From positions 46,176-110,175 of the forward strand of contig DASTFF010000026.1 in assembly GCA_035708865.1 (NCBI GenBank): a stretch of 64,000 nucleotides of DNA, in the 5' to 3' direction. The DNA comes from Gemmatimonadota bacterium. GTDB lineage: Bacteria > Gemmatimonadota > Gemmatimonadetes > JACCXV01 > JAHWKZ01. Position numbers and translations under genes: made by a program. This document shows, in pieces, positions 51,026 to 52,985 of the stretch (position 1 is the stretch's first letter; every line of letters begins with the position of its first letter). Under the pieces are notes generated by a model that did no database searches, was not told the DNA's origin, and saw nothing but the letters and a program-made list of their open reading frames with translations.

Positions 51026-51257
51026 TGTGACGTGCCTCCGCTGCGGCGAGACCAAGGCCGGCCTCTCAAGGCCGCCCTACCCGGACGCCCTGGGCCGACG
51101 GATCGCCGAGCAGATCTGCGCCGACTGCTGGGAGGAGGCGAAGCGGATCCAGGTCATGGTGATCAACGAGAACCGGCTGGATCTCAGCGACCCGCGGGCG
51201 CAGGAGATCCTCGAGCGCGCGACGCGCGACTTTCTGGGCCTTCCGGAAGAAGGCTAG
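51018..51257 (+). CDS. yggX: YggX-like Fe(2+)-trafficking / oxidative-damage protection protein
   Basis: 79 aa from ATG 51018, with GGAAGGAG upstream. VTCLRCGETKAGLSRPPYPDALGRRIAEQICADCWEEAKRIQVMVINENRLDL aligns with E. coli YggX as I recall it. Confidence 0.8.
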   Translation: MADVTCLRCGETKAGLSRPPYPDALGRRIAEQICADCWEEAKRIQVMVINENRLDLSDPRAQEILERATRDFLGLPEEG

Positions 51258-52450
51258 AGCGGCTCGAGATCGGGGGCGCCACGCCCCAGCTCTCGCATCT
51301 CGGATCTTGTAAGTCCCGTCCTTCCAATACTATAGACTGCGACAACTCGACCGTTGCATGAGCCCCATGCTACGCCCTCGACGGCCAGACCCTCGACATC
51401 CCAGCTGCGGGCGCGGAGGGGCGCGCCGACGACCTGAACCGGCGTCCCGAAGAGCTCGGTGTCGTAGGAGGTGAGCTCGGCGAACTCTTTTTTCCCGCCG
51501 GTCATGTTGTTGCCCGCGACCCGGCCCTGGCGCTGGGCGTGGACCCAGTGCTCGACCCGATGGCGGAGACCGGCGATGGGGTCGGGCCAGGCGGCCACGT
51601 CCCCGGCCGTCCACAGCCCGGGCGCAGCCCGCAGCCCGGCATCGACGACGATTCCGCCGTCGGCGGCGAGCGGCGCTCCGTGCACGAAGGCGGTCTCCGG
51701 AACGACCCCGACCGCCACGACCACGAGTTCAGCGGTGAGGAGCGGGCCGGGAGATCCGCCGGGTGACCGGGTCGCGACGCGGTACCCATCCTTGTCGCGC
51801 TCGAAGCCGGTCACGGTGACCGAGGTCAGGACCCGGACGCCACCGCCTTCGAGGATCTCCTTGAGCGCGCGGCCCACCGCCTCGGGGGCCATCCGCCCGA
51901 ACAGCCACGCCTCGCACTCCACCACCGTCACCGGCAGCCCCCGGCCCGCCAGCGCGGCCCCGACCTCGACCCCGAGCAACCCCCCGCCCACCACTACCGC
52001 ACGCGACGCCTCGCGCGCGGCCCGCCGCAGCCGGAGCCCATCGTCCAGGGAGCGCAGCGTGTGGAGTCCGGGGTCGTCGCCACCGGGAACGGGAAGCCGC
52101 CGCGGACGGGCGCCGGTGGCGACCAGGCACCGCTCGTAAAGGAGGACTTCCCCGGTGTCCAGTCGGAGCCTGCGTTCTTGCGCGTCCAGCCGGACGGCGC
52201 GCCGGCCGCACCGCAGCTCGATCCCCTGCCGTTCCCAGAGCGGCAGGGGCTTCATCACGATGTCGTCGGGGGCGAGGTCGTCCCGCTTCAGGAAGTCTTT
52301 CGAGAGGAGGATGCGATTGTAGAAAGGATGCGGATCGGCGGACACGACCACGATCTGCGCCTCTCGGTCCCGGCGGCGGATCGTCTCCGAGGCCCGGACA
52401 CCGGCGGCGCCCGAACCTACGATCAGGAAGTCGATCCTGTCGGCGCTCAG
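51254..52450 (-). CDS. FAD/NAD(P)H-dependent oxidoreductase (ferredoxin-reductase-like), putative CTG start
   Basis: The Rossmann motif DFLIVGSGAAG lies upstream of the track start at 52351. A second dinucleotide site is VVVGGGLLGVE; also TAGDVA. Between the in-frame TGA (52477-52475) and the motif, the only start-like codon is CTG at 52450-52448, overlapping the upstream stop as CTGA. Confidence 0.75.
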   Translation of the reverse strand: MSADRIDFLIVGSGAAGVRASETIRRRDREAQIVVVSADPHPFYNRILLSKDFLKRDDLAPDDIVMKPLPLWERQGIELRCGRRAVRLDAQERRLRLDTGEVLLYERCLVATGARPRRLPVPGGDDPGLHTLRSLDDGLRLRRAAREASRAVVVGGGLLGVEVGAALAGRGLPVTVVECEAWLFGRMAPEAVGRALKEILEGGGVRVLTSVTVTGFERDKDGYRVATRSPGGSPGPLLTAELVVVAVGVVPETAFVHGAPLAADGGIVVDAGLRAAPGLWTAGDVAAWPDPIAGLRHRVEHWVHAQRQGRVAGNNMTGGKKEFAELTSYDTELFGTPVQVVGAPLRARSWDVEGLAVEGVAWGSCNGRVVAVYSIGRTGLTRSEMRELGRGAPDLEPL

Positions 52451-52671
52451 CGCCTCCGCAGCTCCGCGAGGACGTCATCGAACTCGGGAAACTCGCCGGT
52501 CCGCTTCTTGGAGTGGATCAGATCTCCGTCCACGTGAATCTCGAACACGCCGCCACCGCTGGGGATCAGCTCGACCTCGGCGGAGGGAATCTCACTCTCG
52601 ATGAGGGCGGCCAGACTGGTCGCCCGCGGCTCGTAGTTTCAAGCGGTGCAGTATTCGATCGTGACGTTCAT
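52447..52671 (-). CDS. SelW/SelT/SelH (Rdx) family selenoprotein; in-frame TGA read as Sec
   Basis: Not in the ORF track. ATG 52671 has AGGAGG 11 nt upstream. Translation: MNVTIEYCTAUNYEPRATSLAALIESEIPSAEVELIPSGGGVFEIHVDGDLIHSKKRTGEFPEFDDVLAELRRR. The TGA at 52641-52639 sits in the CxxU/CxxC redox motif. IEYC, RA, LIPSGGGVFEI, VDG and FPE match bacterial Rdx proteins. High GC3 continues past the TGA. Confidence 0.8.
52605..52625 (-). promoter_or_regulatory. candidate bacterial SECIS hairpin
   Basis: RNA GGGCGaCC-AGUCU-GGcCGCCC gives 7 bp with one A.C mismatch. It starts 13 nt after the UGA, and the apical loop contains GU. Confidence 0.5.
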
Positions 52672-52693
52672 GCGCTTTCCTTCCTCCTGAGGC

Positions 52694-52945
52694 TCATCGC
52701 CAGTCGCACGGGCAGAGGCCGAAGAACCTGTCCTCGCGCGCACGACGGTACGCCTCCTCGAGCGACATCCCCTGGCGGCGGAATCGTTGGATGTCGCGCA
52801 GCCGGTGGACGTCGCCTTCCGACCACCAGCGCGGGTCCTCGCCGCCGCTGTGGACCTCCGGCGTGACCCAGCCGGCTGCCGTGCATGCGTCGATCGTCGC
52901 CCGATCGAGCCCTGCCACCCGCCGGAGGACTTCGTCCGTTCGCAT
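52694..52945 (-). CDS. small MerR-family / CbpM-like HTH protein
   Basis: 83 aa with good GC3. GLDRATIDACTAAGWVTPE...WSEGDVHRLRDIQRFRRQGMSLEEA resembles short MerR/CbpM-type domains. The C-terminus carries CPC (GLCPCDWR). Confidence 0.55.
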   Translation of the reverse strand: MRTDEVLRRVAGLDRATIDACTAAGWVTPEVHSGGEDPRWWSEGDVHRLRDIQRFRRQGMSLEEAYRRAREDRFFGLCPCDWR

Positions 52946-52956
52946 CCAGGAGCCCC

Positions 52957-52985
52957 AGGGTAGACGCCCCCTCCAAGGGCGTCAA
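52957..52985 (-). promoter_or_regulatory. sigma70-like promoter of the MerR-like/selenoprotein/reductase operon (TTGACG-N17-TACCCT)
   Basis: Minus strand reads TTGACG cccttggagggggcgtc TACCCT. The -10 element ends 11 nt before the ATG at 52945, implying a very short leader or none. Confidence 0.5.

What the first reader, a model, noticed from the sequence alone, without database searches (positions are those of the whole stretch)
51254..52985. Three-gene module: MerR/CbpM-like HTH, Rdx selenoprotein and flavoprotein reductase; possibly a dedicated selenoprotein redox system
One promoter-like site (TTGACG-N17-TACCCT, 52985-52957) precedes three tightly linked genes:
- an 83-aa MerR/CbpM-like protein ending in a CPC motif
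- the CxxU Rdx selenoprotein, whose SD begins right after the first gene's stop
- a 398-aa ferredoxin-reductase-like FAD/NAD(P)H oxidoreductase, joined to the selenoprotein stop by a 4-nt overlap

The physiological reductants and partners of bacterial Rdx/SelW-like proteins are, to my knowledge, not established. Translational coupling to a pyridine-nucleotide flavoreductase suggests an NAD(P)H to flavoprotein to CxxU electron relay under a small, possibly redox- or metal-sensing regulator.

Nearby genes fit an oxidative-stress or metal theme, though that may be coincidence: yggX is convergent, with stop codons sharing CTAG at 51254-51257, and a CNNM/CorC transporter is divergent.
Basis: inference. 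Interest (0 to 1): 0.8.

Follow-up and report, generated by a model that had tools for sequence, protein, structure and literature searches.

The report
Selenoprotein operon with winged-helix and flavoreductase genes
One group of soil Gemmatimonadota bacteria carries a tightly packed three-gene operon (a small MerR-fold protein ending in Cys-Pro-Cys, a SelW-like selenoprotein, and an AIF-type flavoprotein reductase) that offers candidate partners for a selenoprotein family of unknown function, but the reductase is often lost and the link is absent in other bacteria.

Summary

**What holds up**
- The promoter TTGACG-N17/18-TA[GC]C[CG]T is kept in 18 of 19 distinct orthologous upstream regions. 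It sits 6-11 nt before the first start codon, which implies a leaderless mRNA.
- The Rdx gene has an in-frame TGA followed by a hairpin. That hairpin covaries across 100 Rdx genes, as expected for a bacterial SECIS.
- The 398-aa reductase exists only if translation starts at a CTG inside the CTGA overlap with the Rdx stop. Orthologues support it.

**What weakens the "dedicated reductase" reading**
- The trio occurs only in one Gemmatimonadota lineage, always in the same CNNM...YggX slot.
- 66 of 80 Rdx loci from other species have no MerR-like gene. Apart from 11 trio loci, none of the 80 has such a reductase within 5 kb.
- The reductase has no conserved cysteine and is of the AIF/ferredoxin-reductase type.
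- It was deleted independently at least three times in the window's closest relatives, which keep an intact Sec-Rdx. It is absent in two further lineages.

**The constant pair** is the winged-helix protein (invariant C-terminal FFGLCPCDWR) plus Rdx: 36 of 36 loci.

**Best reading:** a lineage-specific thiol/selenol redox unit with an accessory flavoprotein whose synthesis is coupled to the selenoprotein's. The function is untested.

The parts
52957..52985 (-). Sigma-70-type promoter: -35 TTGACG (52985-52980), 17-nt spacer, -10 TACCCT (52962-52957). The -10 ends 11 nt before the ATG, so the transcript has almost no leader.
   Evidence: Sequence read. (C)GG-TTGACG-N17/18-TA[GC]C[CG]T is present in 18 of 19 distinct orthologous upstream regions, with the -10 ending 6-11 nt before the start codon. 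The consensus scanner does not call it.
52694..52945 (-). 83-aa stand-alone MerR-fold winged-helix protein with an invariant C-terminal FFGLCPCDWR (CPC motif). There is no coiled-coil or effector domain.
   Evidence: - Pfam MerR_1 22.0 bits against a cut-off of 21.6; 18 of 30 orthologues match MerR_1.
- AF2 pLDDT 91.8 with an a1-a2-b-b-a3-a4 layout.
- Foldseek top hits are CvkR, CueR, GlnR and TnrA, TM 0.55-0.68.
- Invariant columns are listed.
- dN/dS 0.03-0.08.
- Only 5 hits among 1.84 billion representative proteins.
52683..52688 (-). Shine-Dalgarno AGGAGG for the Rdx gene. It starts 5 nt after the stop of the first gene and ends 11 nt before the ATG.
   Evidence: Sequence read. The gap between the first gene and Rdx ranges from -4 to 175 nt in orthologues and is mostly 2-30 nt.
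52447..52671 (-). SelW-like (Rdx family) selenoprotein, 74 aa, motif C8-T-A-U11 and a GGGVFEI motif.
   Evidence: - Translation.
- Pfam Rdx 3.4e-23; NCBIfam SelTWH_Campy 91.2 against 88; TIGR02174 70.5 against 34.2.
- All 80 related species loci have TGA at codon 11.
52639..52641 (-). In-frame TGA read as selenocysteine (codon 11 of Rdx).
   Evidence: The reading frame and protein conservation continue past the TGA in every orthologue.
52605..52625 (-). SECIS-type hairpin starting 13 nt after the UGA: GGGCGACCA-GUC-UGGCCGCCC. It contains one A.C mismatch and has an invariant G as the first loop base.
   Evidence: - Folding.
- On 100 distinct Rdx genes the 7-bp core is 91.7% paired.
- 71 cells change on both sides, against 24.7 in shuffles (0 of 500 shuffles reach this).
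- Slid controls give 23-54% pairing.
- No Rfam family matches.
51254..52450 (-). 398-aa AIF/ferredoxin-reductase-type FAD/NAD(P)H oxidoreductase. Its start codon is CTG (52450-52448), which overlaps the Rdx stop as CTGA.
   Evidence: - Pyr_redox_2 5.6e-55.
- Closest PDB sequences are 8c0z_E, AIF, and rubredoxin/ferredoxin reductases.
- AF2 pLDDT 90.4; Foldseek TM 0.82-0.89 to AIF, MDHAR and ArR.
- No invariant Cys.
- The CTG lies 11 codons before GxGxxG, where other clades have GTG/ATG 9-12 codons before it.
- dN/dS 0.24-0.32.

Best explanation
This is a lineage-specific operon of one Gemmatimonadota clade.

**Anatomy (shown)**
- A conserved sigma-70-type promoter sits almost directly on the first start codon, which implies a leaderless mRNA.
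- Gene 1 encodes an 83-aa MerR-fold winged-helix protein whose only invariant appendage is the C-terminal tail FFGLCPCDWR.
- Gene 2 encodes a SelW-like Rdx selenoprotein with a Cys-x-x-Sec motif, decoded with the help of a SECIS hairpin 13 nt after the UGA.
- Gene 3 encodes an AIF/ferredoxin-reductase-type flavoprotein.
- In the window's clade the flavoprotein has no canonical start codon. It begins at a CTG that overlaps the Rdx stop (CTGA).

**Mechanism (inferred)**
- The functional core is the winged-helix-CPC protein plus Rdx. The Cys-x-x-Sec centre of Rdx exchanges redox equivalents with the CPC dithiol of its partner. This either switches a regulator or handles a dedicated small redox substrate.
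- The flavoprotein is an accessory, either an NAD(P)H-driven electron supply or a co-expressed output.
- Ribosomes probably reach the flavoprotein start mainly by terminating on Rdx, so flavoprotein synthesis would depend on successful Sec insertion at codon 11.
- Rdx is retained without the flavoprotein.
For: **Operon anatomy**
- Coordinates and translations.
- Promoter conserved in 18 of 19 upstream regions, 6-11 nt from the start codon.
- SECIS covariation on 100 genes.
- TGA at codon 11 in 80 of 80 species loci.

**Core pair**
- Every distinct locus with the winged-helix gene and at least 100 nt downstream has Rdx next to it (36 of 36). Gaps run from -4 to 175 nt, and three loci have ATGA/GTGA-type overlaps.
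- The small protein is found essentially nowhere else: 5 hits in 1.84 billion representatives, and 51 clusters all at least 60% identical.
- It is under strong purifying selection, dN/dS 0.03-0.08, and 25 columns are invariant, including F74-R83.
- The pair survives every loss of the reductase.

**Accessory reductase**
- Present in 26 of 31 assessable loci.
- The clade of orthologues at 48% identity or more was found only downstream of Rdx in all loci inspected.
- CTG/CTGA coupling is shared by the window, L007, L008 and L020, and the same CTGA junction is seen in L016 and L096. Other clades have GTG/ATG 10-30 nt after the Rdx stop.
- Selection is relaxed but still purifying, dN/dS 0.24-0.32.

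**From the literature and established knowledge**
- The Rdx family is regarded as thiol-based oxidoreductases of unknown function (PMC10650576).
- SelH combines an Rdx fold with DNA binding (same review).
- GlnR and TnrA are minimal MerR-fold regulators that sense through a C-terminal tail (established knowledge; they appear among the fold matches).
Against: - No experiment exists for any step.
- All conservation lies within one vertically inherited syntenic block (CNNM...YggX-GreA-GlpD). Adjacency alone is therefore weak evidence of a shared function.
- L029 has Rdx alone in the same slot, with neither partner.
- No conserved operator-like palindrome was found in the promoter region.
- The putative recognition helix is acidic. 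Its consensus is LDAxEAAGWV where MerR proteins have the basic/aromatic TLRYYE-type motif. DNA binding is therefore doubtful.
- The CPC tail has low model confidence: pLDDT 63 for the last block.
- Dependence of reductase translation on Sec insertion is deduced from gene geometry only.
Confidence: 0.4

Rival explanations
1. The flavoprotein is the dedicated reductase of the selenoprotein (NAD(P)H to FAD to Cys-x-x-Sec). The small MerR-like protein is the redox- or metal-sensing transcription factor of the operon.
For: - The genes share an operon, and reductase translation is coupled to Rdx.
- This reductase clade was seen only downstream of Rdx.
- 26 of 31 loci keep it.
- FAD and NAD(P)H motifs are intact and the model is confident.
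- The first protein has the MerR fold.
Against: - No cysteine is invariant in the reductase clade.
- Its sequence and fold are those of AIF, MDHAR and ferredoxin/rubredoxin reductases. Their known acceptors are metalloproteins, quinones or radicals, not disulfides (established knowledge).
- All known flavoprotein disulfide reductases use an enzyme cysteine (established knowledge).
- Three independent deletions in the closest relatives, and two further absences, leave Sec-Rdx intact.
- Of 80 Rdx loci in other species, 66 lack the MerR-like gene and 69 show no such reductase within 5 kb. The nearest-flank Pfam survey lists neither family among its 25 commonest.
- The promoter spacer is 17-18 bp, not the 19-20 bp of MerR-type promoters. 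No operator is conserved.
Confidence: 0.25
2. The genes are neighbours by descent only. They are co-transcribed because of compact genome organisation in this lineage, with no shared biochemical pathway. The reductase serves an unrelated acceptor.
For: - The whole block from LVIVD and CNNM to YggX, GreA and GlpD is syntenic across the clade.
- The module never appears in another genomic context.
- The reductase is lost repeatedly without consequence for its neighbours.
- Rdx has quite different neighbours elsewhere, for example PFK in 16 other Gemmatimonadota loci.
Against: - Insertions in relatives (DUF6174, an aldo-keto reductase, a 115-aa ORF) always fall between the reductase and yggX, never inside the trio.
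- The trio shows start/stop overlaps and a non-canonical coupled start.
- Both the small protein and this reductase clade are known only next to Rdx.
Confidence: 0.2
3. A metal or chalcogen handling unit. The CPC tail and the Cys-x-x-Sec motif bind a metal ion or selenium species. The rubredoxin-reductase-like flavoprotein reduces that bound centre, in functional connection with the flanking CNNM transporter and the YggX iron-trafficking protein.
For: - CPC and C-terminal Cys pairs are metal ligands in CueR, PbrR and CadR-type MerR proteins, which are among the best fold matches.
- The reductase resembles rubredoxin and ferredoxin reductases, which serve small Cys-ligated metalloproteins encoded nearby.
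- The CNNM and Iron_traffic genes flank the operon in every locus.
Against: - No metal-binding domain is detected.
- The Rdx family has no known metal centre (PMC10650576).
- The flanking genes are on other transcripts: one is divergent with its own conserved promoter elements, the other convergent.
- The idea rests on analogy only.
Confidence: 0.1

Closest known systems
Bacterial SelW-like selenoproteins (Rdx family: PF10262, TIGR02174, NF041051)
   Same: - Size of about 74 aa, N-terminal Cys-x-x-Sec after the first strand, and a GGxFE motif.
- TGA followed by a hairpin.
- Almost always Sec rather than Cys (80 of 80 here), as reported in PMC1794560.
- Translation of a homologue was shown in C. 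jejuni (bioRxiv 10.1101/2022.11.09.515450).
   Different: The protein itself does not differ. What is new is its operon context with two lineage-specific partners.
Rubredoxin reductase/rubredoxin and putidaredoxin reductase/putidaredoxin pairs; AIF and MDHAR
   Same: - The same flavoprotein type: sequence E 1e-28 to 1e-40 and TM 0.82-0.89.
- No redox-active cysteine.
- Encoded next to a small redox protein.
   Different: - The neighbouring small protein here is a selenoprotein with a thioredoxin-like fold and no known metal centre.
- No NCBIfam equivalog cut-off is reached (best is HcaD at 198 bits against 450).
- Pfam Reductase_C is not detected, although the C-terminal domain is modelled.
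Thioredoxin reductase/thioredoxin and other flavoprotein disulfide reductase systems
   Different: The reductase lacks the CxxC/CxxxxC or single catalytic Cys that all such enzymes use. Matches to TrxR, GR, LipDH and CoADR models are far below their cut-offs.
Minimal MerR-fold proteins (GlnR/TnrA, RacA, CarA N-domain, NmlR) and metal-sensing MerR proteins with C-terminal Cys pairs (CueR, PbrR, CadR)
   Same: - Winged-helix a1-a2-b-b-a3-a4 fold.
- A short C-terminal tail as the only candidate sensor, as in GlnR/TnrA.
- A Cys pair near the C-terminus, as in CueR-type sensors.
   Different: - No dimerisation coiled coil.
- An acidic putative recognition helix lacking the R-Y-Y type residues.
- A promoter spacer of 17-18 bp with no conserved palindrome.
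- The family is confined to one clade.
Eukaryotic selenoprotein H (Rdx fold plus AT-hook, reported as a redox-sensing DNA-binding protein) and the AIF-CHCHD4/MIA40 (CPC motif) partnership
   Same: - SelH combines an Rdx Cys-x-x-Sec centre with a nucleic-acid-binding module (PMC10650576).
- An AIF-type flavoprotein is associated with a small CPC-motif protein (structures 8vgy and 8qns appear among the fold hits).
   Different: These are analogies only. Here the modules are separate proteins. AIF binds the N-terminus of CHCHD4, not its CPC (established knowledge). No homology links the small proteins.

Membership tests
Rdx / SelW-like selenoprotein family | Match to the family profile above the curated cut-off | tested here: met
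   Pfam PF10262 82.1 bits (cut-off 22.6). TIGR02174 70.5 bits (34.2). NF041051 91.2 bits (88)..
Rdx / SelW-like selenoprotein family | N-terminal Cys-x-x-Sec(Cys) motif, and the GGxFE(I/V) motif | tested here: met
   C8-T-A-U11 and G39-G-G-V-F-E-I. C8, position 11, G40, G41, F43 and E44 are invariant in the alignment.
Rdx / SelW-like selenoprotein family | In-frame UGA followed by a bacterial SECIS stem-loop at the usual distance, with G in the apical loop | tested here: met
   The hairpin starts 13-15 nt after the UGA. Loop G26 is invariant. 91.7% paired, with 71 both-side changes against 24.7 in shuffles (0 of 500) on 100 genes. No Rfam model matches.
Rdx / SelW-like selenoprotein family | Sec-decoding machinery (selA, selB, selC, selD) in the same genome | not testable with these tools
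   No tRNA-Sec in the 64-kb window. The rest of the genome is not available.
MerR family transcription regulators | N-terminal winged helix-turn-helix of MerR type | tested here: met
   - Pfam MerR_1 is marginal: 22.0 bits against 21.6, with 18 of 30 orthologues matching.
- A PDB profile search returns almost only MerR-type domains, at E=0.008-0.8.
- AF2 pLDDT 91.8 and Foldseek TM 0.55-0.68.
MerR family transcription regulators | Long C-terminal coiled-coil dimerisation helix and effector-binding region | tested here: not met
   The protein ends at residue 83, about 12 residues after helix 4. Only the FFGLCPCDWR tail follows.
MerR family transcription regulators | Palindromic operator inside a promoter with an overlong (19-20 bp) spacer | tested here: not met
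   The spacer is 17-18 bp in all orthologues and its sequence is not conserved. The 7-bp palindrome in the window is absent from the closest relatives.
MerR family transcription regulators | DNA-contacting basic/aromatic residues in helix 2 (TLRYYE-type) | tested here: not met
   The consensus is LDAxEAAGWV, with D19 nearly invariant. The wing Arg (R39) is kept. Actual DNA binding was not tested.
   MerR_2 matches 3 of 30 members with best E=0.03. HspR scores 18.8 bits against a cut-off of 105.
AIF / ferredoxin-reductase type of two-dinucleotide-binding-domain flavoproteins | Two Rossmann GxGxxG motifs, the Pyr_redox_2 profile, a three-domain fold, and no redox-active Cys | tested here: met
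   - Pyr_redox_2 187 bits and Pyr_redox 60.8 bits.
- G12/G14/G17 and G155-G160 are invariant, and no Cys is invariant.
- TM 0.82-0.89 over the full length to AIF, MDHAR, ArR and 3fg2.
AIF / ferredoxin-reductase type of two-dinucleotide-binding-domain flavoproteins | Membership of a named functional equivalog (HcaD, AndAa, NorW, NirB and others) | tested here: not met
   All NCBIfam scores are far below their cut-offs. The best is HcaD at 198 bits against 450.
Flavoprotein disulfide reductases (TrxR, GR, LipDH, CoADR, MerA) | Catalytic cysteine(s) next to the flavin | tested here: not met
   No invariant Cys in 21 orthologues. The most frequent one (in YERC-LVATG) is replaced by Ala in at least three. 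The family models score 42-105 bits against cut-offs of 408-629.
SelD-associated pyridine nucleotide-disulfide oxidoreductase (TIGR03169) | Match above the curated cut-off | tested here: not met
   35.7 bits against a cut-off of 310.

The most novel reading that the evidence does not exclude
A selenium-gated redox switch. The CPC-tailed winged-helix protein and the SelW-like selenoprotein would form a dedicated thiol/selenol exchange pair, giving the first physiological partner for any Rdx-family protein. The AIF-type flavoprotein would be translated only when selenocysteine is inserted, by reinitiation at a CTG in the CTGA overlap, and would recycle the pair with NAD(P)H without using an enzyme cysteine.
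Probability: 0.15. Interest if true: 0.8.

Novelty: new variant of a known kind. Interest (0 to 1): 0.5.

Why it matters
**Why it could matter**
- Rdx-family proteins (SelW, SelT, SelH and their bacterial relatives) are widespread Cys-x-x-Sec proteins whose substrates and reductants are still unknown (PMC10650576).
- This operon names two concrete candidate partners: a tiny CPC-tailed MerR-fold protein and an AIF-type flavoprotein. Both are small and soluble, so the proposed interactions can be tested in vitro.
- It also gives a natural example of a non-canonical CTG start coupled to the stop of a selenoprotein gene. That arrangement could tie the expression of a downstream gene to selenium supply.

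**What limits the value**
- The arrangement is confined to one uncultured Gemmatimonadota lineage.
- The reductase is clearly dispensable.
- Nothing here shows that the proteins interact.

Tried and rejected
1. **Rfam** at gathering threshold on the window, and at E<=10 on the module, gave no SECIS or other relevant family. The SECIS was therefore tested by covariation instead.
2. **The consensus promoter/terminator scan** found nothing in 51000-53300.
3. **A programmed -1 frameshift fusing Rdx to the reductase** was considered, because the reductase frame is open for 9 codons upstream of the CTG. It was rejected for two reasons. There is no slippery heptamer, and other clades have a separate GTG/ATG start 10-30 nt after the Rdx stop.
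4. **GTG 52351 as the reductase start** was rejected because it removes the FAD GxGxxG strand.
5. **The 7-bp palindrome GACGCCC-N7-GGGCGTC in the promoter spacer as a MerR operator** was rejected because it is not conserved in the closest relatives.
6. **The protein word-index search with Rdx** returned only 6 hits. Gene callers truncate the gene at TGA or translate the TGA as W.
7. **tRNA-Sec** was not found in the window. The 94-nt 'tRNA-His' call lies inside a coding ORF and is a false positive.
8. **P0129**, a 185-aa protein with the winged-helix N-terminus, looked like a possible fusion. Its remainder resembles RNase HII by eye, so it is probably a chimera or rearrangement and is uninformative.
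9. **A conserved Rdx partner in other phyla** was sought, and none was found.
10. **Literature searches** for SelW-like/Rdx together with reductase, operon or Gemmatimonadetes found no description of this association.

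
Full report
**Observation.**
- TTGACG (52985-52980), a 17-nt spacer and TACCCT (52962-52957) are followed 11 nt later by an 83-aa ORF (52945-52694) ending in FFGLCPCDWR.
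- An AGGAGG lies 5 nt after that ORF's stop.
- A 74-aa ORF (52671-52447) has TGA as codon 11, giving the motif C-T-A-U.
- A long Pyr_redox_2 ORF follows. Its stop shares CTAG with the convergent yggX gene.
- A CNNM/CBS/CorC gene is divergent.

The reductase frame has no ATG, GTG or TTG between the upstream stop and GTG 52351, and that GTG lies downstream of the FAD-binding GxGxxG. The 398-aa protein with its 4-nt overlap therefore exists only if CTG 52450-52448 is the start.

**Source and relatives.** Exact copies of the first protein occur on soil metagenome contigs with the same gene order. Reductase homologues fall into a tight group of 48-100% identity, annotated as Gemmatimonadota. Identity then drops to about 42% or less for generic and Rieske-fused ferredoxin reductases. 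Seven look-ups of members of that group returned the same arrangement every time: CNNM (divergent), an 83-90-aa gene, a gap or truncated Rdx call, the reductase, then yggX and greA on the other strand. tblastn found all three window proteins in every locus. Every Rdx orthologue has TGA at codon 11.

**Promoter.** The consensus scanner reports no promoter or terminator in 51000-53300. Even so, (C)GG-TTGACG-N17/18-TA[GC]C[CG]T is present in 18 of 19 distinct orthologous upstream regions. The spacer sequence varies freely between them. The -10 ends only 6-11 nt before the start codon. I read this as a genuine sigma-70-type promoter producing a leaderless or nearly leaderless mRNA. The window's 7-bp palindrome in the spacer is absent from its closest relatives, and no operator-like element is conserved. 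The other conserved blocks (GAAAATCAC and AAnCTAA) keep their position relative to the CNNM gene, and I assign them to its divergent promoter.

**Selenoprotein.**
- The Rdx ORF passes the Pfam and both NCBIfam cut-offs.
- A search of one genome per species with an Rdx alignment returned 80 loci from many phyla, and all have TGA at codon 11. This agrees with the report that SelW-like proteins largely lack Cys homologues (PMC1794560).
- Thirteen nucleotides after the UGA the window has the hairpin GGGCGACCA-GUC-UGGCCGCCC.
- On 100 distinct Rdx genes the 7-bp core of this hairpin is 91.7% paired. It shows 71 both-side changes against 24.7 in shuffles (0 of 500 shuffles reach this). With slid partners pairing falls to 23-54%. 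The first loop base is an invariant G.
- This meets the description of a bacterial SECIS, although no Rfam model matches.
- The synonymous distance of Rdx among close relatives (0.10-0.27) is lower than that of its neighbours (0.44-0.85). This fits an RNA-level constraint, though the gene is short.

**Small protein.**
- It barely passes Pfam MerR_1, at 22.0 bits against 21.6. 18 of 30 orthologues match that model, and only 3 weakly match MerR_2, the CbpM-type model.
- A profile search of PDB sequences returns almost only MerR-type DNA-binding domains, at weak E-values.
- The AlphaFold model has pLDDT 91.8 and the a1-a2-wing-a3-a4 layout. Foldseek places it with CvkR, CueR, PbrR, GlnR, TnrA and CarH at TM 0.55-0.68.
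- It lacks the MerR coiled coil and any effector domain.
- Its family is extremely narrow: 5 hits among 1.84 billion representative proteins, and 51 clusters all at least 60% identical.
- It is highly constrained, with dN/dS 0.03-0.08, and the last ten residues FFGLCPCDWR are invariant.
- The helix that would read DNA has the consensus LDAxEAAGWV, in place of the basic/aromatic motif of MerR proteins. A regulator role is therefore plausible but not secure. A protein-binding role, as for CbpM, is equally open.

**Reductase.**
- Its sequence neighbours in the PDB are an AOR-associated FAD subunit (8c0z_E), AIF, rubredoxin and ferredoxin reductases, and MDHAR.
- The model has pLDDT 90.4 and superposes over its full length on AIF, MDHAR and ArR at TM 0.82-0.89.
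- No NCBIfam equivalog cut-off is approached.
- In 21 orthologues no cysteine is invariant. It is therefore not a disulfide reductase of any known type, and direct reduction of a selenenylsulfide by such an enzyme has no precedent (established knowledge).
- The CTG is supported as the start by comparison. It lies 11 codons before GxGxxG, where other clades have GTG or ATG 9-12 codons before that motif and 10-30 nt after the Rdx stop. The window, L007, L008 and L020 lack a usable canonical start, and L016 and L096 show the same CTGA junction.
- Since no well-placed Shine-Dalgarno sequence is conserved upstream of this start, I infer termination-reinitiation coupling. Reductase synthesis would then depend on ribosomes getting past UGA-11, that is, on selenocysteine insertion. 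This step is inference.

**How far the association is conserved.**
- From the small protein's side it is absolute: 36 of 36 distinct loci with enough downstream sequence have Rdx next to it, with gaps of -4 to 175 nt.
- From the reductase's side, every orthologue inspected follows Rdx.
- From Rdx's side it is a minority arrangement. Only 14 of the 80 species loci have the small protein, all of them Gemmatimonadota in the same slot, and 66 do not. Only 11, all trio loci, have such a reductase within 5 kb.
- A Pfam survey of the nearest flanking ORFs of 62 such loci lists PFK (16, other Gemmatimonadota), HAD hydrolases (6), OmpA (5) and Zn-dependent alcohol dehydrogenases (5). Neither Pyr_redox_2 nor a MerR family is among the 25 commonest families.
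- A metagenome scan with the small protein found 20 more loci, all in the same CNNM...YggX context. The module never appears transplanted, so conservation of adjacency cannot be separated from vertical inheritance of a syntenic block.
- Insertions in relatives (DUF6174, an aldo-keto reductase, a 115-aa ORF) always fall between the reductase and yggX, not inside the trio.

**Loss of the reductase.**
- Three of the window's closest relatives (small protein 89-93% identical) have clean deletions of the reductase, each with a different junction.
  - L017 keeps one or two bases after CTGA and the last 12-14 nt of the gene.
  - L018 keeps the first 4-5 codons and nothing of the 3' end.
  - L099 keeps 8 codons, about 120 nt of unrelated sequence, and the 3' end.
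- L102 and L111, which are more distant, also lack it.
- In all five, Rdx keeps its TGA and the small protein is intact.
- L029 has Rdx alone between CNNM and yggX.
- Where it is present, the reductase is still under purifying selection, but it is the least constrained gene of the trio. Its dN/dS is 0.24-0.32, against 0.03-0.16 for its partners apart from one Rdx pair at 0.37. It is only 71-78% identical among relatives whose neighbours are 89-95% identical.
- Overall 26 of 31 assessable loci keep it.

**Interpretation.** The anatomy is well supported: a promoter, a leaderless first gene, a SECIS-dependent second gene and a translationally coupled third gene. For function, the distribution points to the winged-helix-CPC protein and Rdx as the obligate pair, with the flavoprotein as an accessory. 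I therefore favour a thiol/selenol exchange between the Cys-x-x-Sec centre and the CPC dithiol. The flavoprotein would act as an optional NAD(P)H-linked electron source or a co-expressed output.

It is weakened by four points: the missing catalytic cysteine, the repeated losses, the absence of the pairing elsewhere, and the non-MerR-like promoter. A purely historical neighbourhood, or a metal or chalcogen handling role, cannot be excluded. Parallels with SelH (an Rdx fold with a DNA-binding motif; PMC10650576) and with AIF-CHCHD4 (a CPC-motif protein; structures among the fold hits) are analogies, not evidence.

**Novelty.** The selenoprotein itself is an ordinary member of a known family. The CPC-tailed MerR-fold protein is an undescribed, clade-restricted variant. 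The operon association was not found in the literature searched. I rate the finding as a new variant of a known kind, of moderate interest. It offers testable partners for a family of unknown function, but the evidence is contextual and confined to one uncultured lineage.

Noticed in passing
window 52960-52980 (minus strand): A perfect 7-bp inverted repeat GACGCCC-N7-GGGCGTC fills the promoter spacer in the window. The closest relatives (L016, L017, L018) have different spacer sequences, so its meaning, if any, is specific to this genome.
   Followed up: partly
window 52986-53040, and the same region in L007-L052: Two further conserved blocks (GAAAATCAC, and AAnCTAA about 21 nt away) keep their position relative to the divergent CNNM gene. 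Read on the plus strand they look like its own promoter: GTGATT-N17-TAGTTT.
   Followed up: partly
window 54411-55910 (minus strand); L008 427-1869: The 499-aa LVIVD-repeat protein beside CNNM carries faint precomputed hits to SBP56 (56-kDa selenium-binding protein) in two relatives. It is syntenic throughout the clade, and a link to selenium is untested.
   Followed up: no
window 14783-14876 (minus strand): ARAGORN calls a 94-nt tRNA-His that Rfam does not confirm. It lies inside a 403-aa ORF (13848-15059) whose translation looks like alanine racemase by eye, so it is almost certainly a false positive and not a tRNA-Sec.
   Followed up: yes
L017 5222-5250; L018 1880-1900; L099 3265-3430: There are three independent clean deletions of the reductase gene in the window's nearest relatives. 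Each leaves different remnants of the gene's 5' and/or 3' end, which indicates active gene loss in this sub-lineage.
   Followed up: yes
L032, L034, L040, L047, L048, L056 and others (positions about 5200-6400): In 16-19 other Gemmatimonadota species a SelW-like selenoprotein gene sits immediately upstream of a 6-phosphofructokinase gene. This is a second, different conserved context for Rdx in the phylum.
   Followed up: partly
L007 5270-5569; L008 5239-5697; L014 5239-6198; L013 5067-5414: Lineage-specific insertions (DUF6174, an aldo-keto reductase, a 115-aa ORF) occur between the reductase and yggX in relatives, never within the three-gene module.
   Followed up: partly
window 52447-52671, compared with L016, L096 and L098: Synonymous divergence of the Rdx gene (dS 0.10-0.27) is two- to five-fold lower than that of the adjacent genes (0.44-0.85). 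This suggests a constraint on the mRNA beyond the SECIS, or simply noise in a 74-codon gene.
   Followed up: no
P0003, P0005 (ENA proteins); P0001, P0002, P0004, P0006: Public gene calls for this selenoprotein are either truncated to start after the TGA or translated with W at the Sec position. As a result, protein databases under-represent the family and word-based searches miss it.
   Followed up: yes
L008 3588-3755; L014 3495-3669: In two clades the gap between the winged-helix gene and Rdx is 168-175 nt rather than 2-30 nt. An internal promoter or regulatory RNA there was not examined.
   Followed up: no
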